A model generated the notes under the pieces. The model worked only from the letters and a program-made list of their open reading frames with translations. It made no database searches and was not told the DNA's origin. The translations under genes and the position numbers were made by a program. Positions 10,524 to 48,166 of a stretch of DNA of 64,000 nucleotides are shown here, one piece after another (position 1 is the first letter of the stretch; the number at the start of each line of letters is the position of its first letter). Location: IMG/VR virus record IMGVR_UViG_3300022555_000009. One strand, given 5' to 3'. This DNA is from a virus.

Positions 10524-11342
10524 ATGAGCATGTATGAATCAGTTATCTCGGGAACGGAAAATATTGACAAAGTCCATAAGGTTGTAGTTAGTCTTTCTGG
10601 CGGACTTGATTCCACAACGCTTCTATACTTTATGGTAAAGAAACTTGGTAGAGAAAATGTAGTCGCACTAAGCTTCGATTACAATCAGAGGCACGGTGAT
10701 GTGGAACTCAAGCAGGCATCTAAGACATGTGAGAAGCTCGGGGTCAAGCATAAGATTATTAATCTCTCTTTCCTCGGAGAAATCGCTGCAAACGTATCAG
10801 CGATGGTCAAGGGGTCGGTTGCAACCCCAACAATGGGTGATCTCGACGCTGAGAAGACTGTGCCAACGTATGTACCATTTCGTAATACAATTCTTACGGG
10901 GATCACTTTAGCTTACGCTGAAGCCAATGGAGCAGATGGTATCGCTCTCGGCGTCCAGTATGGTGATTACGAGAACAATGAAGTCTACTTATATTGGGAT
11001 TGTCAGGAAGTTTTCACCAAGGCTATGCAGGCTGTAGCTGATCTCAATAACAAGCACAAGATTACTTTTATCGCTCCCTTCGTTAAATTGAAGAAAGTAG
11101 ATGAGATACAACTCGGCTCAGAACTAAGTATTCCCTACGAGGATTCTTGGACCTGCTATAATCCCACCATAAAGTTTGAAAGAATGGATTATTCTTTCGA
11201 CCCCATGGGAGGCAGAAATGGCCACTCAAGGAATCGATATATCCCTTGTGGCATTTGCCCATCGTGCGCTGGTCGAGCTGATTCTTTCAAGGAGCTCAAG
11301 ATGAAAGATCCTCTCGTAGAGCAGGACGGGGTTGTATATTGA
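10524..11342 (+). CDS. queC: 7-cyano-7-deazaguanine synthase
   Basis: SGGLDSTT, YNQRH, TYVPFRN, SWTCY and CGICPSC motifs. Confidence 0.95.
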   Translation: MSMYESVISGTENIDKVHKVVVSLSGGLDSTTLLYFMVKKLGRENVVALSFDYNQRHGDVELKQASKTCEKLGVKHKIINLSFLGEIAANVSAMVKGSVATPTMGDLDAEKTVPTYVPFRNTILTGITLAYAEANGADGIALGVQYGDYENNEVYLYWDCQEVFTKAMQAVADLNNKHKITFIAPFVKLKKVDEIQLGSELSIPYEDSWTCYNPTIKFERMDYSFDPMGGRNGHSRNRYIPCGICPSCAGRADSFKELKMKDPLVEQDGVVY

Positions 11343-12319
11343 GTCTTCCTGATATGCAAAAATGTACCGACGGCTTTCCTAAGATCCCTATTAGTAAGGT
11401 AGGTATTAGAAATATAGAACTACCAATAAAGGTATACACGAAGGACTCTGTAGCATCGCGATCTTTTTCCACTATAGCTACCATATCCTCATACTGCGAC
11501 TTAGTCGAAGGCGTGAAAGGTATTAATATGTCGAGAATATCTAGAACGATATTCGACATATTCAAAGAGCCTAGAGGATTCATTTTAGATATGGCAGAAG
11601 AGTGCGTATATGCACTCCAGAAGGCGCACGATACGGATGACATTTACCTTAAAGTAAAATTCAAGTATCCCTTCATTCATAATTCGCCGATATCCAAGGA
11701 TCTCAAGTCCCCAGAAATTGTCGACGTGGAAATTGAAACCACGCTTGTGAATAATATTTTGAAGAAGTACTTGACTGTGGATGTAGTTGGTATGTCCTTG
11801 TGTCCGTGTTCTAAGGAAATGAGCCTTCTCATTAATAACCTGACCGAGGAAGAGAGAACTCTATTCGACGTCTGGGACAGTAACGCCGACGACCTCTGGC
11901 CTACTATGAAAAGTCTCGTTAGCAAATTGAAGAAGGCTGGCTTCGGCGCTCATAATCAAAAGTCATTTGTTAAAATTAAAGTAGAAGTAAGAGATGACAT
12001 CGTATGGATAGAAGACTTGGTCAATCTTGTGTATCGATGCACTTCCGCCCCAACCTTCTCGGTTTTAAAGAGACCAGATGAAAAGTGGGTTACAGAGGTA
12101 TCTTATATGGGCGGGTATTACGATGATAATAAACAATTTGTAGAAGTACCTGACGCTGGGCCTAAATTCGTGGAAGATATTTCTCGTCAGTGCGCAGAGA
12201 AGCTGAATGAGATGTGTGCAGTGAAAGATTATGTTGTCGTAGTTCGTAATCAGGAAAGTATTCATAGCGGCGACATAGAAGCAGTCGCCGTGTTGTCAGC
12301 AGGAAAAGAATTACGATGA
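11339..12319 (+). CDS. folE2: GTP cyclohydrolase IB
   Basis: KGINMSR, SLCPCSK, AHNQ, LKRPDEK, FVED and ESIH motifs. Confidence 0.92.
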   Translation: MSLPDMQKCTDGFPKIPISKVGIRNIELPIKVYTKDSVASRSFSTIATISSYCDLVEGVKGINMSRISRTIFDIFKEPRGFILDMAEECVYALQKAHDTDDIYLKVKFKYPFIHNSPISKDLKSPEIVDVEIETTLVNNILKKYLTVDVVGMSLCPCSKEMSLLINNLTEEERTLFDVWDSNADDLWPTMKSLVSKLKKAGFGAHNQKSFVKIKVEVRDDIVWIEDLVNLVYRCTSAPTFSVLKRPDEKWVTEVSYMGGYYDDNKQFVEVPDAGPKFVEDISRQCAEKLNEMCAVKDYVVVVRNQESIHSGDIEAVAVLSAGKELR

Positions 12320-17493: not shown

Positions 17494-17672
17494 AATGACC
17501 AAGGAAGAGAGCTTACGAATACTCGCGGGAGTATTAGAGAGAATAAAAAATATGACTCAAGAGGAATTTAATATAAGGAGTTTCCTTAGTGTGCATGAAA
17601 CTATGGAAATAAGATACAGAGAAAAAATTGATTTATTTTTATACCAGACAAGGAGCAAATAAAGATATGAGA

Positions 17673-18354
17673 ATGGACCTAGCAGAACTAGTAGTAGTAA
17701 TGGATAAGTCGGGATCAATGGCAGGCGCGCAGAGTGACGCTATTGGTGGAATTTAATCAGTTTTTGAAGGAGCAGAAGGAAGCTCCAGGAGAAGCAAAGC
17801 TTACCGTTGAGCTTTTCGATTCTCAGTGTTCCTTCTATGTCTTGAACGCGGACATTAGGAGTGTTGATCCTCTTAACGAGAAGTCATATAGCCCCAGTGG
17901 TAATACGGCTCTCTACGATGCCATCGGTAAAGCTATCGATGAAACAGGTACTCGCTTGGCTGCCTACGAGGCCGAGTCTCGGCCTGCAAAAGTCATCTTT
18001 GCTATTCTCACTGACGGAGAAGAGAACTCCTCACGAGAGTACGACAAGAAGAAGATTTTTGATATGATTAAGAAGACTCGCGATACCTTGGGCTGGGAGT
18101 TTATCTACCTTGCCGCTGGAGCCGAGGCATTCAAAGGCGGCGCCGATATTGGTATGAACGTATCCAAGATGGCTCTGTACAGGAATGACAATGCTGGTAA
18201 TACTGGAACATATACCGCAACATCTTCTTATGTGACTTCTTTGAGAAGCGCTGTCGATATGGATCAATTCAAGGAATTTTCTATGTCTAATAATATGCAG
18301 GCTGAAGTCAACGCAGCAGTTCTCTCCGAGGAAAACAAAGATCCAGCACCATAA
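17673..18354 (+). pseudogene. vWA-domain protein with a +1 frameshift near 17751
   Basis: MDLAELVVVMDKSGSM (MIDAS DxSGS) ends at TAA and continues in the next frame as FNQFLKEQK...TALYDAIG...LTDGEENSS. Confidence 0.75.
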
Positions 18355-24290: not shown

Positions 24291-24454
24291 ATATAAGGTT
24301 ATCCGATCGACTAGTATACAGGCCAAGAGAGGTCGAGTCCAGGTTCGGATTAAAGCGATTACTCGTGGCGAGGCCTTGCTAGCTTCCCGGGTGCTTGAGC
24401 GTAAGGGGGCCAGAACACAGCCCCGCAGCTTGTATATGGTAACCTTTTGTTTTT

Positions 24455-24571
24455 CGGGTGGTGGCCCAGCGGTAGAGGCGGAAGTTATAAAAATGTGTCT
24501 CGTTCAGTAGACATTAACCGCAGCATAAAATAAGGAACTTCTAGTCGTAGGTTCGAATCCTACCTGCCCGG
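24455..24571 (+). tRNA. tRNA interrupted by a ~44-nt hairpin element; spliced anticodon probably AAG (Leu)
   Basis: CGGGTGG/CTGCCCG acceptor, GAAGT/ACTTC anticodon stem with a 51-nt loop; removing 24487-24530 leaves TT-AAG-GA. Confidence 0.7.
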
Positions 24572-24575
24572 CCTA

Positions 24576-24633
24576 TAGACACTTGCAGCAATCAAATAAA
24601 AACAAATCTGTAAAATTTGAAAAAGCGTGTCTA
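24576..24633 (+). ncRNA. Permuted hairpin element enclosing an isolated Tyr(GTA) anticodon stem-loop
   Basis: TAGACAC..CAGCAA..[CAAAT-CTGTAAA-ATTTG]-AAAAA..GTGTCTA. Confidence 0.65.
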
Positions 24634-24655
24634 GTTTTTAAAGTAAGGAGTACAT

Positions 24656-24826
24656 ATGGGAATTGGTGATATGGTTAAACTGAAGAGCGGTGGGCCTAAT
24701 ATGGTGGTGGTATCCTCAATAACCAGAGATGGCTTATGCTGGGTCACAACTAATTGGTTTGGGAAAGATTCAGACGTTAATGTTTACGAAGATTCCTTCC
24801 CAGTAGACTGTCTTTATACTCCATAA
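24656..24826 (+). CDS. YodC / DUF2158 family protein
   Basis: GDMVKLKSGGPNMVV...WF motif; TAAGGAG RBS. Confidence 0.75.
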   Translation: MGIGDMVKLKSGGPNMVVVSSITRDGLCWVTTNWFGKDSDVNVYEDSFPVDCLYTP

Positions 24827-24832
24827 GATTAC

Positions 24833-24905
24833 GGCGTCGTAGCCCAAAGGCAGAGGCAATGGACTTAAAATCCATACAGTTTGGGTTCGAGTCCCAATGG
24901 CGCTA
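24833..24905 (+). tRNA. tRNA-Leu(TAA), short variable loop
   Basis: Cloverleaf; CT-TAA-AA loop. Confidence 0.85.
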
Positions 24906-24909
24906 TTGT

Positions 24910-24982
24910 GGCTTCTTAGCCCAAAGGCAGAGGCGATAGTTTCAAAAACTATACAGTCTGGGTTCGAGTCCCAGAGGAGCTA
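24910..24982 (+). tRNA. tRNA-Leu(CAA), short variable loop
   Basis: Cloverleaf; TT-CAA-AA loop. Confidence 0.85.
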
Positions 24983-25020
24983 TTTTTAGCGGTTCCGTCA
25001 GAAGATGATTGTTGTAAAAC

Positions 25021-25105
25021 GACCCCCGTTCTGGACATCGGTCTTCTAAACCGATTCCATTAAATAGTTCAGCGGAGGTGTGAGGTTCAACTCCTCCGGG
25101 GGCCA
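25021..25105 (+). tRNA. Atypical D-arm-less tRNA-Arg(TCT)
   Basis: Acceptor, ATCGGT-CTTCTAA-ACCGAT arm and T-arm present; no D-arm; long variable region. Confidence 0.6.
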
Positions 25106-25180
25106 TCGAGAGTAAATGAAATTAGGGTTCGAGTCCCTTCGAAATCACTGAGAACTAATTACATTACAAAAGGAATACTA

Positions 25181-25771
25181 TTGAAGAAATTCACCTGTGT
25201 TTTCGTATTGATCTTTGCGTTATGTAATGGTTATGCAGCTCCGTTCTTTCCTGATTTTCAATGGCCCATGGGAAACGGATATGGTAATGATGTAAAGATA
25301 ACTAGTCCTTTCGGTTACAGAAGCGATGTCTTTTTACCTGGTCAAGGCGGCGATGATAGCTCAATGCACTTCGCCTTAGACATGATTCCGAAGGATGGAT
25401 CGTATAAAGTAGTACCTATCCTGGCAGCTTACGACGGTACAGCAGTTGATGTGTACCCTGCACCAGGCGGCAAGTTTAGAGGTCATCCCACTTTCGGTGG
25501 ATGTGTACTTCTGAAGCATGATTTGGGTATTGTAGATGGTAAGCATATATATGCATACACCTTCTATGCTCATATGAAAGAAGTAGATATTTCTACGAAA
25601 GAGAAAGTTAAGAAAGGCGAACTTATAGGAGTTATGGGTAGTACTGGTAAGTCTGACGGAGCTCACTTACATTTTGAGATCAGGTTTGATCCACGGAATT
25701 TCCTGCAGGTTACCTCGCCTCCTAAAATATTCATGACATGCACGTCTCTTATACAGTTTAATAGGAAATGA
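25181..25771 (+). CDS. M23 family peptidase with signal peptide (endolysin-like)
   Basis: ITSPFGYR, HFALD, YAHM and GSTGKSDGAHLHFE motifs. Confidence 0.88.
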   Translation: MKKFTCVFVLIFALCNGYAAPFFPDFQWPMGNGYGNDVKITSPFGYRSDVFLPGQGGDDSSMHFALDMIPKDGSYKVVPILAAYDGTAVDVYPAPGGKFRGHPTFGGCVLLKHDLGIVDGKHIYAYTFYAHMKEVDISTKEKVKKGELIGVMGSTGKSDGAHLHFEIRFDPRNFLQVTSPPKIFMTCTSLIQFNRK

Positions 25772-25772
25772 A

Positions 25773-25967
25773 ATGGATGAAGTGAAAGATGTACCTATTG
25801 TACCCCCTAAAGAAGAGAAGGTAACGTACACCGTCTTAGGATCGACAGGTCTTTTCAGAGAGGAAGGTATTGTCAATGAGCGATGGACTTATAATGGAAT
25901 GACTTTAGTATCCTTTAAAAATAAATCTATTGTGGTGAATTCTGATATTTGCGTTCCTGTAGAGTAA
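25773..25967 (+). CDS. Hypothetical protein
   Basis: ORF directly after the M23 gene. Confidence 0.45.
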   Translation: MDEVKDVPIVPPKEEKVTYTVLGSTGLFREEGIVNERWTYNGMTLVSFKNKSIVVNSDICVPVE

Positions 25968-25973
25968 TTACAA

Positions 25974-26044
25974 TCTTCCTTAGATCAATGGTAGATCGCA
26001 GGCCTTTGGATCCTGCTACGCTTGTTCGATTCAGGCAGGGAGAA
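25974..26044 (+). tRNA. tRNA-Gln(TTG)
   Basis: Cloverleaf; CT-TTG-GA loop. Confidence 0.8.
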
Positions 26045-26058
26045 TTAGCTATTTTCGA

Positions 26059-26289
26059 TGTTCTGTAGCTCAACTGGAAGACCAGAGACTTCGAGTCTCA
26101 CTTAGTCTGATCCAATTAAGAGAAATCAATCCTCGTTCGTATAAAAGTGGTACAAGGGTCTCTGAAACCCTAGGAGGTTGGTCAGTACAACCACGGGGAA
26201 TAAATTGAACTTCGCCGAAAAGTAACTACCAATTATAGTAGAGGTTCAATATGAAATGTTTGAAGTTAGGTTCAAGCCCTAGCAGGACA
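26059..26289 (+). pseudogene. Split tRNA-Arg(TCG): 5' part 26059-26100 and T-arm/acceptor 26262-26289, with tRNA-Gln nested inside
   Basis: TGTTCTG/CAGGACA acceptor halves about 220 nt apart. Confidence 0.6.
26130..26200 (+). tRNA. tRNA-Gln(CTG)
   Basis: TCCTCGT/ACGGGGA acceptor; CT-CTG-AA loop; atypical T-loop. Confidence 0.75.
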
Positions 26290-26297
26290 ATCAACAT

Positions 26298-26370
26298 CTA
26301 GATGTAGCTCAGTTGGTAGAGCGGGTGGTTTGGGACCATCAGGTCGGAGGTTCGACCCCTCTTATCTAGA
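26298..26370 (+). tRNA. tRNA-Pro(TGG)
   Basis: Cloverleaf; TT-TGG-GA loop. Confidence 0.9.
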
Positions 26371-26396
26371 CTAAGTATTTATATGAGGGTAGAGTT

Positions 26397-26735
26397 GTGA
26401 TTATAAGAAAATTCTTGTTAGGAGCAGAGAAAGAGGGAGTTGCCTTAGCCAGCGGCATCAGTGATTTTATCACTGGTCTTGAGTCGACCCCTGGAGTCAA
26501 GGTTCTTGAAAAGACGACTAAGCATATCGTCGTGGCTTTAGAAGCCAACATCGATATTATTTCTTCGCGGGCGCCTTTTCAGAAGGCATTCGATGACTTG
26601 GAAGCTAAGGTCAAGAAAGACATCGAGGCTTTAGGTAACGTTACTGTGAGGGACGTTGTGGACTTTGACATTAACGTGGTGAAGCGTCTGTACTTGTTCG
26701 TCAAAAAGGTAGTCCAGAAGATTTTTAAAAAGTAA
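26397..26735 (+). CDS. Hypothetical protein
   Basis: ACTAAGTA motif and GAGG RBS upstream. Confidence 0.55.
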   Translation: MIIRKFLLGAEKEGVALASGISDFITGLESTPGVKVLEKTTKHIVVALEANIDIISSRAPFQKAFDDLEAKVKKDIEALGNVTVRDVVDFDINVVKRLYLFVKKVVQKIFKK

Positions 26736-26745
26736 AGTCCAATAT

Positions 26746-26859
26746 TAAGACACCTACAGCATAAAAGTTCCGGTTTCGGAAAGTAGCTCAGCAGGTAGAG
26801 CACAGGACCTCCATAAGTACTGGGTCGTTGGTTCGAATCCAACCTAAAAAGGTGTCTTG
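26746..26859 (+). tRNA. Circularly permuted tRNA (anticodon loop contains CAT/CCA) inside a permuted hairpin element
   Basis: 3' acceptor piece TTCCG-G precedes 5' CGGAAAG; gene body ends at CCAAC-CT; flanked by TAAGACACC/GGTGTCTTG. Confidence 0.7.
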
Positions 26860-26878
26860 AATTTAAATCGAAAAATAT

Positions 26879-26920
26879 TTGCCACGGATCTATCATATAA
26901 TCTTATATGATATACATAAG
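26879..26920 (+). promoter_or_regulatory. Putative early promoter variant
   Basis: TTGCCAC-N-CTTATATGATATACATAAG. Confidence 0.5.
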
Positions 26921-27084
26921 AGTGGGAAAGCACACTAATTAAACATGGGAGGAGAAAGTACAATGAAAAAGTCCGAGACTATAGTCACAGCAACTAATAC
27001 AAGTTTCTCTTTCTGGGCCAATCATAATAAAGGATGGGTGTCTACGGATATAGCATGATAATATTTCATGTACAGACCGAAGAC

Positions 27085-27111
27085 ACCAGAGACTAAAATC
27101 TCTGGTTTTTT
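27085..27111 (+). terminator. Rho-independent terminator
   Basis: ACCAGAGA/TCTCTGGT hairpin followed by a T-run. Confidence 0.6.
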
Positions 27112-27114
27112 AAT

Positions 27115-27187
27115 GGGCTTATAGTATAACGGCATATTATGGTAGCCTTGCAAGCTTCAGATCAGAGTTCGACTCTCTGTAGGTCCA
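27115..27187 (+). tRNA. tRNA-Ala(TGC)
   Basis: G3-U70 pair; CT-TGC-AA loop. Confidence 0.85.
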
Positions 27188-27196
27188 CTTTTTCAT

Positions 27197-27270
27197 TTCA
27201 CAGTAGTTCAGCTGGAAGTAACGTCTGACTGTTAATCAGAAGGTCCCTGGTTCGATCCCAGGCTGTGGAG
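27197..27270 (+). tRNA. tRNA-Asn(GTT)
   Basis: Cloverleaf; CT-GTT-AA loop. Confidence 0.9.
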
Positions 27271-27281
27271 CTCTTTTTTTT

Positions 27282-27357
27282 GCGAGCATATCCCCTCACT
27301 CTGATAAGGTGTTGAAAGGGTAGTTGGCGCAGGGAGGTTCAATTCCTCCGGCTCGCA
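27282..27357 (+). tRNA. Atypical D-arm-less tRNA-Ile(GAT)
   Basis: GCGAGC/GCTCGC acceptor, CACT-CTGATAA-GGTG arm, TAGTTGG in the variable region, T-arm. Confidence 0.6.
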
Positions 27358-27400
27358 TCAGGGAGGTAAGCGGGCACGTACGGGCAGCGCACTCCCGCAT

Positions 27401-27471
27401 AGGCCTTTGGTGAAATGGTATCACTTCGGTTTCCAAGTCCGACGTTGTGGGTTCGATTCCTACAAGACCTG
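27401..27471 (+). tRNA. tRNA-Trp(CCA)
   Basis: Cloverleaf; TT-CCA-AG loop. Confidence 0.8.
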
Positions 27472-27486
27472 TCTCAGTTTTTCATC

Positions 27487-27557
27487 GCCAGATTAGTATA
27501 GTGGCATTACGAGTGACTTGTAATCTTTAAACAGGGGTTCGATTCCTCTATCTGGCT
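27487..27557 (+). tRNA. tRNA-Thr(TGT)
   Basis: Cloverleaf; CT-TGT-AA loop. Confidence 0.8.
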
Positions 27558-27565
27558 TCTTCATT

Positions 27566-27640
27566 GCTCGGTTCGCCTAGCGGCTATGGCACCACCCCTA
27601 CAAGATGGCAATACCGGAGGTTCGAGTCCTCCACCGAGCA
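27566..27640 (+). tRNA. tRNA-Val(TAC)
   Basis: Cloverleaf; CC-TAC-AA loop. Confidence 0.8.
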
Positions 27641-27883
27641 CTACGAGAGGGATTATAAATGGACATTGAAGAGATCCGAAACTTTATAGATAGGTACGAA
27701 GCAGGCCTTGTCGACGCTGCTGACTTTGTTGATAATTGTAATGAAATAATTGATGTGTTTAAAAGATATATTGATTTATACGCAGCAACACATAGCTAAT
27801 AAAAGGTAGGTATAGGAAATGGTAATTTTCCGATTAGGTAAACGCCCTAGAAAAGCAATCGTTAAGCGACCTTAAATTCTAGG

Positions 27884-27932
27884 GCCTATTACGGATAGCA
27901 TGGTCGAATCCAGAAGACTTTTAATCTTCCAC
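27884..27932 (+). pseudogene. Truncated tRNA-Lys(TTT), no T-arm
   Basis: GGAT/ATCC D-stem and GAAGA-CTTTTAA-TCTTC arm, then runs into an RNA-ligase fragment. Confidence 0.55.
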
Positions 27933-28031
27933 AAACGAAAATTAGCAACGGTCCAGGTAATCAAGACCGTGGAACCTATTGAAAATGCTGACAGCATTGT
28001 TAAGCTCACCTTTGAAAGCATGGGTTGATCT
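27933..28031 (+). pseudogene. Dead 5' fragment of the RNA ligase gene
   Basis: KRKLATVQVIKTVEPIENADSIVKLTFESMG*S aligns with KRKLATIQSIDKVIPIEGADNIVKITFKNIGWS of 28828. Confidence 0.85.
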
Positions 28032-28087
28032 TTTCTCGGTCTCCTACTAATTGGTTAGAGATTGATACCAATTTAGCAGGAGACATA

Positions 28088-28819
28088 ATGTATAACATTC
28101 TTTATGAAACTACGAATTTAGCAAATAACAAGATCTACATTGGGGTTCATTGTACAGATGACCTCGAAGATGGATATTTCGGCTCTGGCACCGTGTTACG
28201 ACGCGCCATAAAAAAGTATGGCTTAGCTTCTTTCAAAAGACGAATTTTGGAACAATTTGAAACTATCGAAGCTGCGTTTGTTAGAGAAGCAGAAATTGTA
28301 AATATGTCTTTTCTTGCAAGAAAGGATATCTACAATATTCGATTGGGCGGGGACGGAGGGGATTATCTCGGGTGGCTCAGAACTGCAGACCCTCAAAAAT
28401 ATGAGAATATACGACAAAAGCTTAGAGAGGCTGCTCCTAAAACAAAATCAGAAGCTCACAAACGAGCAATCAGCAAAAGTAAAAAGGGTAAGCCGAGAAC
28501 TTGGAAGACAAGAGGTAACACAGGGAACAAGCATAGCGAAGAATTCAAAGCATGGCAAGCAGAGAGAACTAAAAATAGAAGATGGTATACAAACGGAATA
28601 GACAATCTCTATTTATGGCTTTCGGATATCCCTCCTGAAGGTTTCTATCCCGGTAGAAAAGTAACTTGGGATCACCCAAGCCCGCCGTCGAGCAAGGGGA
28701 TACCGAAATCAGAAGAATCAAAAAAGAAGTTGTCCGAAACACGAAAAGCAAAACATATCGTGCCAGGTAATAAGGGAAAAAAGAAGATAATTATAGATGG
28801 TGAAATCCACTATCTATAG
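28088..28819 (+). mobile_element. GIY-YIG (Seg-like) homing endonuclease with NUMOD3-like repeats
   Basis: ILYETTNLANNKIYIG.H......GYFGSG; KHSEE/KSEESKKK repeats; AGGAG RBS and ACTAATT upstream. Confidence 0.88.
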
Positions 28820-28827
28820 GAGAAGGT

Positions 28828-29874
28828 ATGAGTGAAATAAAAAGAAAGCTGGCGACAATTCAAAGTATTGACAAGGTGATTCCAATTGAAGGAGCGGACA
28901 ATATCGTCAAGATTACCTTCAAGAATATCGGATGGTCTTGCGTAACTAATAAAAATTCCAATCCATATGAAGGGAAACAAGTAGTATATCTGGAAGTCGA
29001 TTCCGTTCTCCCTCTTACGAATTCCGCTTTCGCTTTCATGGAGCCTTATCACTATCGCGTTAAGACTATTAAGCTTCGAGGCCAGGTTAGTCAGGGACTT
29101 ACTTTGCCTCTGTCGGATTTCGTTGGAATGTTAACAAACTTCGACCTCGAGGAAGGATATGACCTCACTGATGCACTTGGAATCATTAAATACGAAGCGC
29201 CAGAGCCTGGTCAGCCAGGTATGTGCAAGGGGTCTTTCCCCGGATTCATTATAAAGACAGATGAGGAAAGGGCTCAGAATCTGGGTAACAAGACTATAGA
29301 GAGACTTCTTGCTGAGCATGAATTCGACGCCACTGTTAAGATGGACGGAACAAGCGTCACCTTCTATATCAATGGTATTACAGACGACCCTACTTCCGGA
29401 GAGTTCGGTGTCTGTAGTAGGAATCAGGAACTAAAAAATACAGAAGGAAACGTGTACTGGGGAATGGCTCGTAAATACAACATCGAGGAGCGCCTTCGGG
29501 GCTTGGGCCGAAATCTTGCTATTCAAGGAGAAGTTGCAGGCCCTGGAATTCAGGCTAATAGAGCTAAGCTTAAAGAAGTACAGTTATTTGTTTTTACTGT
29601 CCAGGATATTGATAAGACAACGAGATTCAGCAACGACGAAATTGAACGAATTCTTACCACGATGAATGAATTTGCTGATGGGGAAGAACTTAAGATGGTC
29701 CCTAGGCTAGCAGTACCAACCCTGGCTACCCTTGATGACATTGCGACCCTCGCAGAAGGCACCTGTGTCGTATCTGATTCTATCCGAGAGGGAGTTGTAT
29801 TGCGGGCTAAGGATGACGCAAGTATTAGCTTTAAATTCATTAATCCGAAATATCTCTTGAAACACGATCTATAA
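28828..29874 (+). CDS. ATP-dependent RNA ligase (DRB0094 / Rnl2-like family)
   Basis: N-terminal RKLATIQ..IEGAD OB-like module; KMDGTS, IQGE, EGVV and SFKFIN motifs. Confidence 0.9.
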   Translation: MSEIKRKLATIQSIDKVIPIEGADNIVKITFKNIGWSCVTNKNSNPYEGKQVVYLEVDSVLPLTNSAFAFMEPYHYRVKTIKLRGQVSQGLTLPLSDFVGMLTNFDLEEGYDLTDALGIIKYEAPEPGQPGMCKGSFPGFIIKTDEERAQNLGNKTIERLLAEHEFDATVKMDGTSVTFYINGITDDPTSGEFGVCSRNQELKNTEGNVYWGMARKYNIEERLRGLGRNLAIQGEVAGPGIQANRAKLKEVQLFVFTVQDIDKTTRFSNDEIERILTTMNEFADGEELKMVPRLAVPTLATLDDIATLAEGTCVVSDSIREGVVLRAKDDASISFKFINPKYLLKHDL

Positions 29875-30557
29875 TATAAGAGAATAAAAAACAGCAAGAG
29901 CCGAGCTAAAGCGAGGAAGTCGGTTGTTAATCCTAGTGCTAGCCTAGGTTGAGACGCGGATGTGGGCGGAAGTAGACTTGCAAGGCTTAGCGGCTGAACA
30001 AGACTCATACCCAATTCATAAGACGGTGCATTGCCGCGTCAAAAAGAGAATCTATCCGATAGGGATCAAGGAGCACCTCTTTTCAAGTTCTCTCTTCATA
30101 AGGAACGAAAATGGCTATCATATTTATTCTTTTAGGGATACTTGCTTTTGGGATTTTTTGTGCGGTATTCTTTTCGTGCTTATCTGATGGCTGGTCTGCG
30201 GGAGAGATAGTCGGCGTAATTTTTGTTTCATTTTTTGCATAGCACTACTTCTAGTTCCTCTTATTCGTAATGGAGAAGTTCGATCTATAGATAACAGAAC
30301 TATAACTACCGATTACTACGAGGGAATAAAGTATAGCAAGCCTGTGATAATTCGTACCACCAGGATTAATCACCATTGGTGGACTTACGCTGCCTTATCT
30401 GATAACCAGACCCAGACTTATGAAGTGGATGTAGGTAAGTAAAATGCCTGAGTATCCTTTCGGAGTTTTCGTGCTCCTCGTGTGTCTACTTCCTCTCACT
30501 ATTTGGAAGATAATAGAGATCATCATTTATATGTGTTCTCACATAAGGATTATATAA

Positions 30558-30776
30558 ATGGGTCACTACGATAGTTCATACGCTTCAGATGACTACAGAG
30601 AATTGTCAAAGAAAGGCAAATCAGAACTTCATAAGTCCTTCCGCGCAGAACTTAAAGAGCAGGGTTGTGTTTGGGGTACTTATGATGATGTACACGGGAT
30701 AGCTTTAGCTCACTGGGCTGAAGAGAAAGGATATAGAATAGAAGGAACTCATACATTTTTAGTATACAAAAAATAA
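30558..30776 (+). CDS. Hypothetical protein
   Basis: TAAGGA RBS. Confidence 0.45.
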   Translation: MGHYDSSYASDDYRELSKKGKSELHKSFRAELKEQGCVWGTYDDVHGIALAHWAEEKGYRIEGTHTFLVYKK

Positions 30777-30782
30777 AATTAC

Positions 30783-30854
30783 GTGGAGATGGTGTAACTG
30801 GTAGCACCTCTGATTGAAGGTCAGACTGTCCGGGTTCGAGTCCCGTTCTCCGCA
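30783..30854 (+). tRNA. tRNA-Phe(GAA)
   Basis: Cloverleaf; TT-GAA-GG loop. Confidence 0.85.
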
Positions 30855-30856
30855 AT

Positions 30857-30926
30857 GTGTCATTAGCTCAGTGGTAGAGCGCTTGACTGTGAATCAAGAG
30901 ACAAGGGTTCGATCCCCAATGACACC
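30857..30926 (+). tRNA. tRNA-His(GTG)
   Basis: Cloverleaf; CT-GTG-AA loop; C discriminator. Confidence 0.85.
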
Positions 30927-30994
30927 CTGAAAAAAAGGAGAACACGATGTATTAGGTTTGAAAAAGATATAGAAATTATACCAATATACAACAC

Positions 30995-31071
30995 AGGAGC
31001 CTAGCTCATCGTAGGTCAGTAGCGCAATCCTTATAAGGTTGATGTGCCGAGTTCAAGCCTCGGGGCTCCTA
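30995..31071 (+). tRNA. tRNA-Ile(TAT)
   Basis: AGGAGCC/GGCTCCT acceptor; CT-TAT-AA loop. Confidence 0.8.
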
Positions 31072-31072
31072 T

Positions 31073-31188
31073 TGAACGATAGCTCAGTGGGTAGAGCACG
31101 AAAAAATTAGGTCTTGACAAGACCTAAACTGCAATCCAAAATTAGCCTATTAAGCTCGTGGTCGTGGGTTCGAATCCCACTCGTTCAA
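31073..31188 (+). tRNA. tRNA-Asn(ATT) interrupted by a 43-nt hairpin element in the anticodon stem
   Basis: Removing 31102-31144 restores CGAGC-CTATTAA-GCTCG and a full cloverleaf. Confidence 0.75.
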
Positions 31189-31376
31189 AGTGGGGTCTTG
31201 TTTTACGCGTCATTACGAAGAATTTGTCAGAATAGAAGGTTCGACAGTAAAGCGAAAGCTTTTCATTCTCTCCGTAAAAGAAGCATGATATGCGTAATGA
31301 CGCTTTTGAAAATGGAAGGGTCGGATAATGGTATTCCAGTAGATTGACTTCTGGTATTCCATCAGACTAATTATAT

Positions 31377-32000
31377 ATGAATTGTCGATACTGTGGAAGA
31401 GAGTGTAAGAATCCTAATAGTTTACGTAACCATGAAAGGTTATGTAAGTCTAATCTAAATAGGCAGCAAACTAAAGGGAACGTGGGGGGAGTTCCTTGGA
31501 ACAAAGGACTTACGATAGCCTCTTCGGAAAAACTTAAATTCCTTAGTGAAAGACTTTCGTTAAAATATAAGAATCAAGAACTTCAACCCTCCTTTAAAGG
31601 GAAAACACATACGGTGGCTTATAAGGTTCGTATGTCGGATCTTATCAAAAGTAGGTACGAGGATGGATGGCAACCCAAAGCTGGCCGATGTAAGAAAATT
31701 AAGTATGAAAGCTCAATTGCGGGGTCAATAAGTGTGGATGGTACCTGGGAGTTGGCAACAGCAAAGTACCTTGATACCCTTGGGGTTCAGTGGATCAGAA
31801 ACACAAAGAGATTTGATTATGTTGATGATGTAGGAGTAAGCAGAAAATACACTCCCGACTTCTATGTGAAAGATTGGAGTTCTTACCTCGAAGTAAAAGG
31901 GTATGAGACTGATCTGGATAGAGCTAAGTGGAGGGGTTTTCCAGAGAAGCTTATTATCTGGAAAGAGAGAGAATTGAGAAACTTAAATATATTGGAATAG
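31377..32000 (+). mobile_element. PD-(D/E)xK homing-endonuclease-like gene
   Basis: C2HC Zn finger, PWNKGL / FKGKTHT NUMOD-like motifs, YTPDF...YLEVKG nuclease core. Confidence 0.8.
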
Positions 32001-39458: not shown

Positions 39459-39489
39459 AAGAATAGGGGGTTCATCAGAACCCCCTCCT

Positions 39490-39560
39490 GTATCCATAGC
39501 CTAGTGGCAAGGTGGGGATCTCTAAAATCCCACACGCGGGTCCGATTCCCGCTGGATGCA
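39490..39560 (+). tRNA. Amber suppressor tRNA (anticodon CTA)
   Basis: GTATCCA/TGGATGC acceptor; GGGAT-CTCTAAA-ATCCC arm. Confidence 0.8.
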
Positions 39561-39561
39561 T

Positions 39562-47352: not shown

Positions 47353-47628
47353 ATGGTCAAAGACAGCTCCGGTATGCACTTCGATTCTTGGGATCGAGCT
47401 ATAGATTACTTATCTCAAAATAACATAGGGCTAAAAATCAATAGAAATAAGTACTTATGGGTATGGAATGAAAACACTGAGTCCATAAGTTACTTAGGTG
47501 AAGAAGGGGACGACGATAATCTCCTACGAGCTCTGGAAAGAGCTATAGACAACCTCTTCTATAAGGTAGAAACAGGTCGACTAGGAAAAACAATTGGTGA
47601 AGATATTTCAGGAGAAATAAATGTATAA
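47353..47628 (+). CDS. Hypothetical protein
   Basis: GAGG RBS. Confidence 0.5.
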   Translation: MVKDSSGMHFDSWDRAIDYLSQNNIGLKINRNKYLWVWNENTESISYLGEEGDDDNLLRALERAIDNLFYKVETGRLGKTIGEDISGEINV

Positions 47629-48166
47629 TATTACGAAAGAGTTTGAATTCGCCTACGCTCATAGAATCTGGAATCAGAAATTAAATGGCCCACAAAGTCT
47701 CAATGCTAAGCCTAAGTGTAGAAACATACACGGACATAATGCTAGAGTTATTGTGGCCCTAAGTTCGCCAGGACTACAAAGCCATGGTGTGGTCCTGGAT
47801 TATAACGAGCTAAACTTCTTCAAGAAGTTCCTAGATGAGGTTCTTGATCACAAGTACATCATCGATGAGTCAGACCCTCTTCTTCCTCAAGATGTGCTTA
47901 TGAGAAATAAGTCTTCCTACAAAGTATTCGACACCTCTAATTTTCGAGAGAGCTGGGGGCGTGATGTAGATGATTTCGATCAGCCCCATCTAGAGTATCT
48001 CGAGTCCTTTGTAATTGTTCCTTTCGTTCCTACCTCTGAAAACTTGGCCAAATGGTTGTTTGAGAACATTGAGCAGTATTTGGGCAAGATGGTGGCTAGT
48101 GTTACGTTCTCTGAGTCTGCAAAGACGACAGCAACTTACTTCAAAGATATATCGGCAGGAGCTTAA
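47621..48166 (+). CDS. queD: 6-carboxy-5,6,7,8-tetrahydropterin synthase
   Basis: FAYAHR, CRNIHGHN, LDH, PTSENLA and ES motifs. Confidence 0.9.
   Translation: MYNITKEFEFAYAHRIWNQKLNGPQSLNAKPKCRNIHGHNARVIVALSSPGLQSHGVVLDYNELNFFKKFLDEVLDHKYIIDESDPLLPQDVLMRNKSSYKVFDTSNFRESWGRDVDDFDQPHLEYLESFVIVPFVPTSENLAKWLFENIEQYLGKMVASVTFSESAKTTATYFKDISAGA

What the first reader, a model, noticed from the sequence alone, without database searches (positions are those of the whole stretch)
26746..26859. Circularly permuted tRNA gene opened inside the acceptor stem
Seen order: element 3' half (AAGACACCTACAGCATAAAAG), tRNA nt 68-73 (TTCCG-G, 26768-73), TTT linker, tRNA nt 1-67 (CGGAAAG, D-arm, anticodon arm, T-arm, CT; 26777-26845), element 5' half (AAAAAGGTGTCTTG). 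Joining CT to TTCCG gives CTTTCCG, the exact complement of CGGAAAG. This is a permuted intron-exon layout. Known: permuted tRNAs are described from algae and archaea. Inference: splicing yields a circular tRNA with a GUUU-capped acceptor end, which is either reopened by RNase P and 3' processing or kept as a nuclease-resistant, unchargeable tRNA mimic. The anticodon loop is enlarged (CTCCATAA; CAT or CCA), possibly through an indel error.
Basis: partly seen in the sequence, partly recalled or inferred. Interest (0 to 1): 0.88.

Follow-up and report, generated by a model that had tools for sequence, protein, structure and literature searches.

The report
Phage tRNA mimic in Y-RNA-like handle
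The "back-to-front tRNA" is real and recurs in other phages. The two flanking pieces are not intron halves but the two strands of a conserved clamp that marks a widespread family of phage small RNAs, apparently undescribed, which usually sit in genomes encoding a Ro60-like ring protein, so this is most likely a tRNA look-alike and not a working or spliced tRNA gene.

Summary
Window 26746-26859 holds a tRNA body without a downstream 3' acceptor strand. An upstream TTCCG-GTTT-CGGAA hairpin completes a 7-bp acceptor stem, and a 9-11 bp outer stem encloses everything. Four sequencing runs and three assemblies give the identical sequence, including the 8-nt anticodon loop.

The splicing reading is not supported. 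The "element halves" are the two strands of a conserved small-RNA handle: 5'-AAGAC-stem, ACAGCA(A/T) tag, cargo, A5, stem-GTCTT-3'. I found this handle in Salmonella phage FelixO1 and in 44 distinct RNAs from viral and metagenome contigs (2.1 expected by chance). Six of them share the loop-closed acceptor hairpin, each with a different, fully compensated sequence. Others have no acceptor stem or a degenerate anticodon loop.

A covariance model built only from foreign members hits this element at 55.2 bits, full length. Fifteen of 16 handle-bearing phage records encode DUF2828, and a model of that protein matches Ro60 structures. This phage encodes none.

Best reading: an orphan Y-RNA-like tRNA mimic, possibly opened by RNase P as M. 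smegmatis YrlA is.

The scan has met this handle family before on other DNA. New here are the acceptor-side attachment, the retained anticodon arm, and the missing partner gene.

The parts
26745..26755 (+). Handle, 5' strand (TTAAGACACCT). It pairs with 26850-26860.
   Evidence: Fold. AAGAC is conserved at the 5' end in 33 of 43 family members. Covariance model R1 aligns it to model positions 1-8.
26756..26762 (+). Single-stranded tag ACAGCAT, the family signature (A/T)C(A/T)GCA(A/T).
   Evidence: Tag counts in 43 members: ACAGCAA 27, TCAGCAA 7, ACTGCAA 4, TCTGCAA 3. The same tag is in four FelixO1 RNAs.
26763..26767 (+). A-rich spacer AAAAG between the tag and the cargo.
   Evidence: Sequence. 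Equivalent A/T-rich spacers occur in the other members.
26768..26781 (+). Acceptor-stem hairpin: TTCCG (tRNA positions 68-72), loop GTTT (G at position 73, then UUU), CGGAA (positions 1-5).
   Evidence: Six other members have a hairpin here with unrelated, compensated sequences.
26782..26845 (+). Rest of the tRNA-like body: AG (positions 6-7), U8 A9, D arm, an anticodon arm with a G.A mismatch and the 8-nt loop CTCCATAA, variable loop, T arm, then CT (positions 66-67) pairing with AG.
   Evidence: Rfam tRNA, 31.8 bits, model 6-65. ARAGORN on the re-permuted sequence. G15:C48, G18G19 and the TTCGAAT T loop are visible in the sequence.
26846..26849 (+). Unpaired bases of the A tract AAAAA (26846-26850) that leads into the 3' handle strand; the fifth A (26850) pairs with T26755 and is counted in the next part.
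   Evidence: The A tract is conserved in all members; it was part of the search pattern and is then always followed by the paired strand.
26850..26860 (+). Handle, 3' strand (AGGTGTCTTGA).
   Evidence: Fold. GTCTT ends 35 of 43 members.
24576..24633 (+). Second open handle in this phage. Its only cargo is a Tyr-like anticodon hairpin, CAAAT-CTGTAAA-ATTTG.
   Evidence: R1 hits it full length at 23.2 bits, E 0.013.
24487..24530 (+). Loop-closed handle hairpin (A5, GTGTCT, loop, AGACAT, CAGCAT) sitting in the anticodon loop of the tRNA-like gene at 24455-24571.
31102..31144 (+). Loop-closed handle hairpin (A6, TTAGGTCTT, GAC, AAGACCTAA, CTGCAA) in the 5' strand of the anticodon stem of the tRNA-like gene at 31073-31188.
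   Evidence: Rfam scores the interrupted gene at 50.9 bits.

Best explanation
Window 26746-26859 is a gene for a small RNA of about 112 nt. Its two ends pair into a 9-11 bp closing stem (AAGACACCU with AGGUGUCUU). An unpaired ACAGCAU tag follows the 5' strand and an A5 tract precedes the 3' strand. This 'handle' defines a large family of phage small RNAs. In other phages the family co-occurs with, and often lies next to, a gene for a DUF2828 protein that has a predicted Ro60-like fold, so the family is a functional analogue of Y RNAs.

The cargo held by the handle here is a complete tRNA-shaped module. An upstream hairpin of 5 bp with a GUUU cap stacks on 2 bp contributed by the T-arm side, which gives a 7-bp acceptor-stem mimic. 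The handle branches off between tRNA positions 67 and 68. The elbow-forming nucleotides are intact. The anticodon arm is degenerate, with an 8-nt loop and a G.A mismatch.

The RNA is therefore a tRNA mimic tethered to a protein-binding handle. It is not an intron-flanked exon and not a decoding tRNA.

Inferred steps, not shown here:
- It is cut out of the tRNA-array transcript.
- The handle docks a Ro60-like ring or another protein.
- The tRNA-like module engages enzymes that recognise tRNA.
- With its 7-bp acceptor stem it may be opened by RNase P in the GUUU loop and receive CCA, as M. smegmatis YrlA does. That would give a two-piece RNA held together by the handle.

This phage has no Ro60-like gene. 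Its four handle RNAs must therefore use a host protein, use an unrelated partner, or act as free decoys.
For: 1. Family. The handle appears in four RNAs directly after the FelixO1 DUF2828 gene. It also appears in 44 distinct RNAs from 54 viral and metagenome loci. Among 151 distinct pattern hits, 44 carry the handle against 2.1 expected from shuffles.

2. Formal membership. Covariance model R1 was built from 13 foreign members and not from this element. It hits 26748-26857 at 55.2 bits, E 5e-10, model positions 1-100. Ordinary tRNAs in the window reach at most 39.9 bits; 13 of them match only the body (about positions 25-88), and the full-span alignments that include ordinary tRNAs reach at most 37.7 bits.

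3. Covariation. On the 13-member alignment 95.6% of cells pair. Fifteen of 21 pairs change on both sides, and 0 of 500 shuffles reach the covariation score. The handle shows 21 different inner-stem sequences. The acceptor hairpins are TTCCG/CGGAA, CGCAT/GTGCG, ATCGCT/AGCGAT, CTGGCT/AGCCGG, AATTC/GAATT, TTGGTT/AACCAA and TTCTAA/TTAGAA.

4. Cargo incompatible with a functional tRNA. Members exist with only 2-4 bp in place of an acceptor stem, with no D arm, or with an anticodon hairpin alone. About 16 of 33 distinct anticodon-type loops are non-canonical: C33 or A33, loops of 6, 8 or 9 nt, or a GNRA loop. In L194 a canonical tRNA-Cys(GCA) lies beside the Cys-like cargo.

5. Partner. DUF2828 scores above its Pfam cut-off in 15 of 16 handle-bearing phage records and in 0 of 14 control genomes. 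In several phages of 30-48 kb the RNA lies within about 1 kb downstream of the gene. An AlphaFold2 model of a phage DUF2828 protein matches Ro60 structures over its full length (9kop, 9l5y, 1yvr, 2nvo; E 2.5e-7 to 3e-4; TM 0.5-0.59).

6. Precedent. YrlA Y RNAs mimic tRNA. The 7-bp loop-closed acceptor stem of M. smegmatis YrlA is cut by RNase P and receives CCA in vivo (PMC4201824).
Against: - This genome, complete by its direct terminal repeats, has no TROVE, DUF2828, DUF7788 or vWA_Ro60 match and no homolog of FelixO1 ORF42. A custom 9-protein HMM gives a best E of 0.23, against 1e-224 in a positive control. The proposed partner is therefore missing here.
- There is no RNA evidence. No RNA run holds the locus, so ends, abundance and processing are unknown.
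- Re-permuting the class-A members gives cloverleaves that ARAGORN accepts in 6 of 7 cases. About half of the cargos keep canonical anticodon loops. A pure scaffold role does not explain that.
- Handle-protein binding is inferred from co-occurrence and fold alone.
Confidence: 0.7

Rival explanations
1. The handle is a protein-processed intron-like element. In permuted order it directs cutting at both cargo ends and ligation, for example by the phage RNA ligase at 28828-29874. That would make a circular tRNA, which RNase P and 3' processing then reopen into a working tRNA. The closed handles in the tRNAs at 24455-24571 and 31073-31188 would be true introns.
For: Joining position 67 to 68 restores a perfect 7-bp acceptor stem. 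ARAGORN accepts 6 of 7 re-permuted class-A members. Deleting the closed handles restores regular anticodon stems. An RNA ligase (PF09414 plus PF21189) lies 2 kb downstream. Unexplained short introns in phage tRNAs have been reported in Lak phages (PMC6784885).
Against: - Most handle cargos could not become tRNAs.
- This element's anticodon loop has 8 nt and its stem has a G.A mismatch.
- Removing the closed handles would leave anticodons AAG and AUU (A34), which is odd for a bacterial system, and tRNA-Asn(GUU) already exists in the window.
- The distance from the handle stem to the presumed cut sites varies from 4 to 11 nt, and there is no bulge-helix-bulge motif.
- No splicing endonuclease and no RtcB are found in the genome.
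- The family tracks a Ro60-like protein, not a nuclease-ligase pair.
Confidence: 0.1
2. Same RNA, but its job does not depend on any Ro60-like protein. It would be a decoy or sponge for host enzymes that attack or modify tRNA anticodon arms, such as anticodon nucleases used in anti-phage defence. The handle would serve only to stabilise the RNA ends.
For: The phage lacks the ring protein yet keeps four handle RNAs. One cargo is nothing but a Tyr anticodon stem-loop, and the same CTGTAAA loop recurs in L012 and L189. Loops vary on constant stems, for example TTGTCAC, CAATCAC and ATTTCAC, as expected of a specificity element. That phages counter tRNA-targeting defences with their own tRNAs is my background knowledge and was not checked here.
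Against: No nuclease target is identified. Some cargos have a GNRA loop or no anticodon-like loop. The sequence conservation of AAGAC, ACAGCA and GTCTT exceeds what end-stabilisation needs. Fifteen of 16 other phage records do carry DUF2828.
Confidence: 0.15
3. It is a decaying relic: a handle RNA left behind after the phage lost its Ro60-like gene, or a tRNA pseudogene with fortuitous hairpins, with no present function.
For: The partner gene is absent. The anticodon arm is degenerate. The tag ends in T instead of the usual A.
Against: Four copies keep every handle feature, with perfect stems of 6-11 bp. The acceptor hairpin, D arm, T arm and tertiary-pair nucleotides are all intact. The sequence is identical across the samples checked. 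It gives the top covariance-model score in the window.
Confidence: 0.07

Closest known systems
YrlA-type bacterial and phage Y RNAs bound by Ro60/Rsr (Rfam RF02553; Chen et al. 2014, PMC4201824)
   Same: A small RNA whose ends pair into a protein-binding stem and which carries a tRNA-like module with D and T arms and a loop-closed acceptor stem. The partner is a Ro60-fold ring protein with a vWA domain. A 7-bp closed acceptor stem can be opened by RNase P and receive CCA.
   Different: There is no Rfam YrlA hit and no GNCGAA motif. The handle is AAGAC-stem, ACAGCA, A5, GTCTT. The module order is acceptor hairpin, D, anticodon arm, T, whereas YrlA runs T, acceptor, D. The handle leaves from the acceptor stem (positions 67/68) and a full anticodon arm is kept; in YrlA the Ro stem replaces the anticodon arm. 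The partner family in other phages is DUF2828, not TROVE, and it is absent from this phage.
Circularly permuted tRNA genes of Cyanidioschyzon merolae, other algae and Thermofilum (Soma et al. 2007 and later; recalled from memory, with mentions in PMC4238349 and PMC3400036 listed)
   Same: The 3' acceptor strand is encoded upstream of the 5' strand and joined to it by a short linker, and the leader and trailer pair with each other.
   Different: The break lies inside the acceptor stem (67/68), not in a loop. Leader and trailer form a long handle and not a bulge-helix-bulge motif. The host system is bacterial and shows no splicing endonuclease. Relatives carry cargos that cannot be tRNAs. The anticodon loop is non-canonical.
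Class I RNAs of Dictyostelium (Kjellin et al. 2021, PMC7919456)
   Same: The design matches: the RNA starts with AAG, has a short stem joining the 5' and 3' ends, a conserved 11-nt motif right after the 5' strand, a variable interior, and a conserved 3' end (CUGU there, GUCUUG here).
   Different: Those are eukaryotic RNAs of 42-65 nt with no tRNA cargo reported and a different known binding protein (Rnp1A). The letters of the 11-nt motif are not in the held text, so its identity with ACAGCAA rests on my memory and on earlier scan notes. Homology is untested.
Two-piece (permuted) tmRNA of alphaproteobacteria and cyanobacteria (recalled from memory)
   Same: A permuted gene in which a loop joins the acceptor 3' and 5' ends in the precursor. 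Processing there yields a two-piece RNA held together by pairing.
   Different: Here there is no Ala acceptor identity, no tag reading frame and no ARAGORN tmRNA call. An anticodon arm is present.
'Enigmatic' short introns in Lak megaphage tRNAs (Devoto et al. 2019, PMC6784885)
   Same: Short non-ribozyme inserts in phage tRNA genes, like the two closed handles at 24487-24530 and 31102-31144.
   Different: That paper describes no shared handle motif. The flagged element is an open handle, not an insert.

Membership tests
AAGAC/ACAGCA handle RNAs of phage Ro60-like (DUF2828) proteins (no published name found; defined here from FelixO1 and 43 metagenomic members) | A closing stem made by the RNA's two ends, with (A)AGAC at the 5' end and GTCT(T/A/G) at the 3' end and a covarying inner part | tested here: met
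   TTAAGACACCT pairs with AGGTGTCTTGA over 11 bp.
AAGAC/ACAGCA handle RNAs of phage Ro60-like (DUF2828) proteins (no published name found; defined here from FelixO1 and 43 metagenomic members) | An unpaired (A/T)C(A/T)GCA(A/T) tag 0-2 nt after the 5' strand, and an A-run just before the 3' strand | tested here: met
   The element has T-ACAGCAT and AAAAA. The last tag base is T, where 42 of 43 members have A.
AAGAC/ACAGCA handle RNAs of phage Ro60-like (DUF2828) proteins (no published name found; defined here from FelixO1 and 43 metagenomic members) | A significant full-length match to a covariance model built from other members | tested here: met
   R1 scores 55.2 bits, E 5e-10, model positions 1-100, and is the top hit of the window.
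AAGAC/ACAGCA handle RNAs of phage Ro60-like (DUF2828) proteins (no published name found; defined here from FelixO1 and 43 metagenomic members) | A DUF2828 (Ro60-fold) gene in the same genome | tested here: not met
   There is no match in the 170.6-kb genome with direct terminal repeats, whereas 15 of 16 other records have one.
YrlA / Y RNA (Rfam RF02553) | A match to the Rfam covariance model, and the GNCGAAN0-1G motif near the 5' end | tested here: not met
   Only partial tRNA hits appear, even at E up to 10. No G-N-CGAA motif is present in 26745-26860.
YrlA / Y RNA (Rfam RF02553) | A Ro60 (TROVE) gene within about 4 kb on the same strand | tested here: not met
   PF05731 and PF25045 give no match in the genome.
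YrlA / Y RNA (Rfam RF02553) | A tRNA-like domain with D and T arms and a loop-closed acceptor stem | tested here: met
   The module order and the attachment point differ from YrlA.
Circularly permuted tRNA genes (algal and archaeal type) | The 3' part of the tRNA lies upstream of the 5' part, joined across the acceptor termini | tested here: met
   TTCCGG, then TTT, then CGGAAAG. Re-permutation gives a cloverleaf.
Circularly permuted tRNA genes (algal and archaeal type) | A bulge-helix-bulge motif at the leader-trailer junction and a splicing endonuclease in the system | tested here: not met
   The junction is a 9-11 bp stem with an asymmetric ACAGCAUAAAAG/AAAAA internal loop. PF01974 is absent from the phage. 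The host is unknown.
Circularly permuted tRNA genes (algal and archaeal type) | A mature product that is a canonical decoding tRNA with a 7-nt anticodon loop | tested here: not met
   The loop is the 8-nt CTCCATAA and the stem has a G.A mismatch. The sequence is reproducible.
Circularly permuted tRNA genes (algal and archaeal type) | A circular RNA intermediate | not testable with these tools
   No RNA run holds the locus.

The most novel reading that the evidence does not exclude
The AAGAC/ACAGCA handle is the recognition module of an undescribed protein-catalysed cut-and-rejoin RNA system in bacteriophages. Closed handles inside tRNA genes would be spliced out as introns. Open handles would release their cargo as covalently closed circles. 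This element would then yield a circular or re-opened permuted tRNA, which would be the first permuted tRNA gene outside archaea and algae.
Probability: 0.08. Interest if true: 0.92.

Novelty: new variant of a known kind. Interest (0 to 1): 0.6.

Why it matters
Y RNAs with Ro60 are an RNA-surveillance system whose bacterial and viral branches are still poorly understood. This element belongs to a second, large handle-defined family of phage RNAs. They carry tRNA look-alikes and track a Ro60-fold protein (DUF2828). I found no published RNA partner for that protein: the only five papers that mention DUF2828 are unrelated.

This instance adds three things.
- A conserved subclass in which a whole cloverleaf, anticodon arm included, is tethered through its acceptor stem. 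This is a different permutation from YrlA.
- Closed-handle versions embedded in otherwise ordinary tRNA genes.
- A complete phage that keeps four such RNAs without the protein. That implies the RNAs either work with a host factor or work alone, for example as decoys.

It also warns annotators that "permuted" or "intron-containing" phage tRNAs of this kind are probably not tRNA genes. FelixO1 is culturable, so the RNA-protein pairing can be tested directly.

Tried and rejected
- Exact-word and peptide-pattern searches for close relatives found nothing in IMG/VR. Cultured phages match only the tRNA body.
- The upstream ORF (112 aa) exists only in near-identical strains, so it gives no divergence for covariation.
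- RNA-ligase relatives at 54-64% identity have a different gene context, no tRNAs and no handles.
- Expression: no RNA holder is listed for 24300-31400.
- Laying four DNA runs showed no variant, no indel and no insert-less form. The listed 'joints' have sides of 19-21 nt and come from other organisms' tRNAs.
- Promoter and terminator scans showed nothing specific at the element. The hairpin reads as a terminator only on the minus strand.
- No paralogue was found: the cargo is not a recent copy of any tRNA in the window.
- An HMM search of PDB sequences with DUF2828 found nothing significant. The Ro60 link needed a fold comparison.
- A loose whole-genome scan for a stem plus CWGCAW was uninformative, with 175 mostly chance hits. 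The stricter AGAC...GTCT rules gave only the four copies.
- A possible fifth handle at 26970-27050 (TCCGAGAC...ACAGCAA...GTCTACGGA, bulged, no A-run) was judged too weak.
- A MIDAS-motif vWA-like ORF at 17613-18354 was checked as a possible remnant of a Ro60-like gene. It has no TROVE or DUF2828 signal and no Pfam hit.
- Closed handles were not found in the other fetched loci, but those loci had been selected for open handles, so this says little.

Full report
**Setting.** The window is bases 50701-114700 of a 170.6-kb phage record with direct terminal repeats. The phage uses the standard genetic code. A tRNA array of 26 or more genes lies on the + strand at about 20.7-45 kb. The flagged element sits inside this array, 10 nt after the stop codon of a 112-aa ORF.

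**Observation.**
- Rfam recognises 26782-26845 as tRNA, but only for model positions 6-65, at 31.8 bits.
- Downstream of the T arm only CT can pair with the 5' acceptor strand.
- The five missing 3'-strand bases, TTCCG, lie directly upstream, joined to C1 by GTTT.
- The whole unit is closed by TTAAGACACCT pairing with AGGTGTCTTGA.
- The fold is much more stable than shuffles (-36.9 kcal/mol, z = -4.4).
- Three independent assemblies are identical across the element; over their overlaps with window 24300-31400 two are 100% identical and the third differs at one base in 7,101. The main contigs of four runs from two studies show no differing letters or gaps, including the 8-nt anticodon loop.

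Mis-assembly and indel error are therefore excluded.

**What the flanks are.** I confirmed four copies, all on the + strand within the tRNA array.
- Two are 'open', with cargo between the two strands: 24576-24633 and this element.
- Two are 'closed' hairpins inside tRNA-like genes: 24487-24530 and 31102-31144.

Earlier notes from other genomes pointed to a handle of a stem plus ACAGCAA next to DUF2828 genes. I tested that lead myself. In Salmonella phage FelixO1, four RNAs lie directly after ORF42, which Pfam assigns to DUF2828 plus DUF7788. Each reads AAGACC-nnTT-ACAGCAA...insert...GGTCTGG. This is the same AAGAC/GTCT stem and the same tag as here.

- It gave 151 distinct hits, of which 44 carry a CWGCAW tag upstream plus a stem of at least 6 bp to the GTCT strand.
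- Shuffled upstream sequence predicts 2.1 such hits.
- The ends are AAGAC in 33 of 43 members and GTCTT in 35 of 43.
- The tag is ACAGCAA in 27 members, with minor variants in the rest.
- The inner stem takes 21 different sequences.

**Cargo classes.**
- Class A has an acceptor hairpin followed by D, anticodon and T arms. It comprises this element plus L013, L018, L029, L189, L191 and L194. The seven hairpins share no sequence and are all compensated. Moving the upstream strand behind the T arm in silico gives sequences that ARAGORN calls tRNA in 6 of 7 cases: Ile-tat, Phe-gaa twice, Ile-gat, Cys-gca, and 'ccat' with an 8-nt loop for this element. The permuted topology is therefore real and conserved.
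- Class B (for example L016, L025, L026, L030, L034, L039, L122) has the same body in normal order. Only 2-4 bp stand in place of an acceptor stem, and the handle continues from there.
- Class C keeps only an anticodon-type hairpin and a T arm.
- The second open copy in this phage carries a Tyr-type anticodon hairpin alone, and FelixO1 has inserts unrelated to tRNA.
- Of 33 distinct anticodon-type loops, about 17 are canonical. The rest have C33 or A33, are 6, 8 or 9 nt long, or are a GNRA tetraloop. Loops also vary on otherwise constant stems.

**Formal tests.**
- On a 13-member alignment that excludes this element, 95.6% of cells pair and 15 of 21 pairs change on both sides. No shuffle and no slid register approaches these values.
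- The covariance model built from that alignment hits 26748-26857 at 55.2 bits, E 5e-10, across the whole model. Ordinary tRNAs reach at most 39.9 bits; 13 of them match only the body (about positions 25-88), and the full-span alignments that include ordinary tRNAs reach at most 37.7 bits.
- Rfam has no family for these RNAs. Members are hit only as partial tRNA and there is no YrlA hit.

**Partner protein.**
- DUF2828 scores above its curated cut-off in 15 of 16 phage records that hold a handle RNA, and in none of 14 control genomes.
- In phages of 30-48 kb the RNA lies within about 1 kb downstream of the gene.
- An AlphaFold2 model (mean pLDDT 72) of one such protein matches Ro60/TROVE structures over its full length: 9kop, Thermus phage phiLo Ro60 9l5y, 1yvr, 2nvo and human Ro60, with E 2.5e-7 to 3e-4 and TM 0.5-0.59. 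vWA domains follow in the hit list.
- The family is thus a Y-RNA analogue.
- This phage has no such gene. Pfam TROVE, DUF2828, DUF7788 and vWA_Ro60, the FelixO1 protein, and a custom HMM run without filters all fail (best E 0.23, against 1e-224 for a positive control).

**Against splicing.**
- The cargo heterogeneity argues against it.
- So does the non-canonical anticodon arm of this element.
- The spacing between the stem and the presumed cut sites varies, and there is no bulge-helix-bulge motif.
- The genome has no splicing endonuclease and no RtcB.
- 'Restoring' the two interrupted tRNAs would yield the anticodons AAG and AUU.

An RNA ligase lies 2 kb downstream. Its relatives sit in contexts without tRNAs or handles.

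**Mechanism.**
- Shown: the structure, family membership, covariation, and the association of the family with a Ro60-fold protein.
- Inferred: the handle is the protein-docking site, and the L-shaped cargo engages tRNA-recognising enzymes.
- Also inferred: because the acceptor mimic has exactly 7 bp, RNase P may cut 5' of C26777 and CCA may be added after G26773. M. smegmatis YrlA does this (PMC4201824). The result would be a two-piece RNA clamped by the handle.
- Unknown: the binding partner in this phage, and the biological role. A decoy for anticodon-directed enzymes is an attractive sub-hypothesis, given the bare Tyr anticodon hairpin and the variable loops.

**Verdict.** The intron and circular-tRNA reading is not supported, while the tRNA-mimic alternative is. 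This is a new topological variant of a Y-RNA-like tRNA mimic, and an orphan one. It belongs to a handle family that this scan has met repeatedly on other DNA and that I could not find in the literature searched.

Noticed in passing
window 27900-29874: The RNA ligase gene (28828-29874; PF09414 plus the PHA02142 OB domain) is preceded by a GIY-YIG homing-endonuclease-like ORF (28025-28819). Before that lies a 42-aa ORF (27900-28028) that duplicates the ligase N-terminus (KLATVQVIKTVEPIENADSIVKLTF against KLATIQSIDKVIPIEGADNIVKITF). This looks like an endonuclease insertion that brought a replacement 5' end.
   Followed up: partly
window 31119-31198: AAGACC of the closed handle in tRNA 31073-31188 can pair instead with GGTCTTG (31192-98), just after that tRNA. 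That makes an open handle around the anticodon hairpin and the T arm. Covariance model R1 hits 31120-31198 full length at 30.3 bits.
   Followed up: partly
window 24455-24633: A tRNA-like gene with a closed handle in its anticodon loop is followed 5 nt later by an open handle whose only cargo is a Tyr (GUA) anticodon stem-loop. The same CTGTAAA loop is the cargo hairpin in unrelated phages (L012, L189).
   Followed up: partly
window 17613-18354: A vWA-like ORF with a MIDAS motif (VVVMDKSGSM) is split between two reading frames (17613-17756 and 17701-18354), by a frameshift or a programmed shift. It has no Pfam hit and no TROVE-like N-terminal part.
   Followed up: partly
window 39489-39561: A tRNA with anticodon CTA (amber suppressor type; ARAGORN labels it 'Pyl') is present in a phage whose ORFs read well under the standard code.
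   Followed up: no
window 24833-24983: Two adjacent tRNAs with Leu anticodons (UAA, CAA) are only 73-75 nt long and lack the long variable arm expected of bacterial tRNA-Leu.
   Followed up: no
window 26970-27050: A possible fifth, atypical handle: TCCGAGAC, 7 nt, ACAGCAA, about 45 nt, GTCTACGGA, giving a bulged 8-bp stem with no A-run. It overlaps a 37-aa ORF.
   Followed up: partly
window 11339-12319 and 47621-48166: GTP cyclohydrolase FolE2 (PF02649) and a QueD-like PTPS (PF01242) suggest a 7-deazaguanine (queuosine or archaeosine type) modification pathway in the phage.
   Followed up: no
L194:6051-6633 (-): A ROOL RNA (Rfam RF03087, 278 bits) lies about 1 kb from a class-A handle RNA and a tRNA array in a metagenomic phage-like contig.
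   Followed up: no
contig of P0009 (no DNA held), L005, L006: Relatives by RNA ligase (about 60% identity) carry RlaP, a rIIA/rIIB pair, a metallophosphatase and, in one case, a true TROVE plus vWA_Ro60 gene about 10 kb upstream of the ligase. This phage has its tRNA array in the corresponding region.
   Followed up: partly
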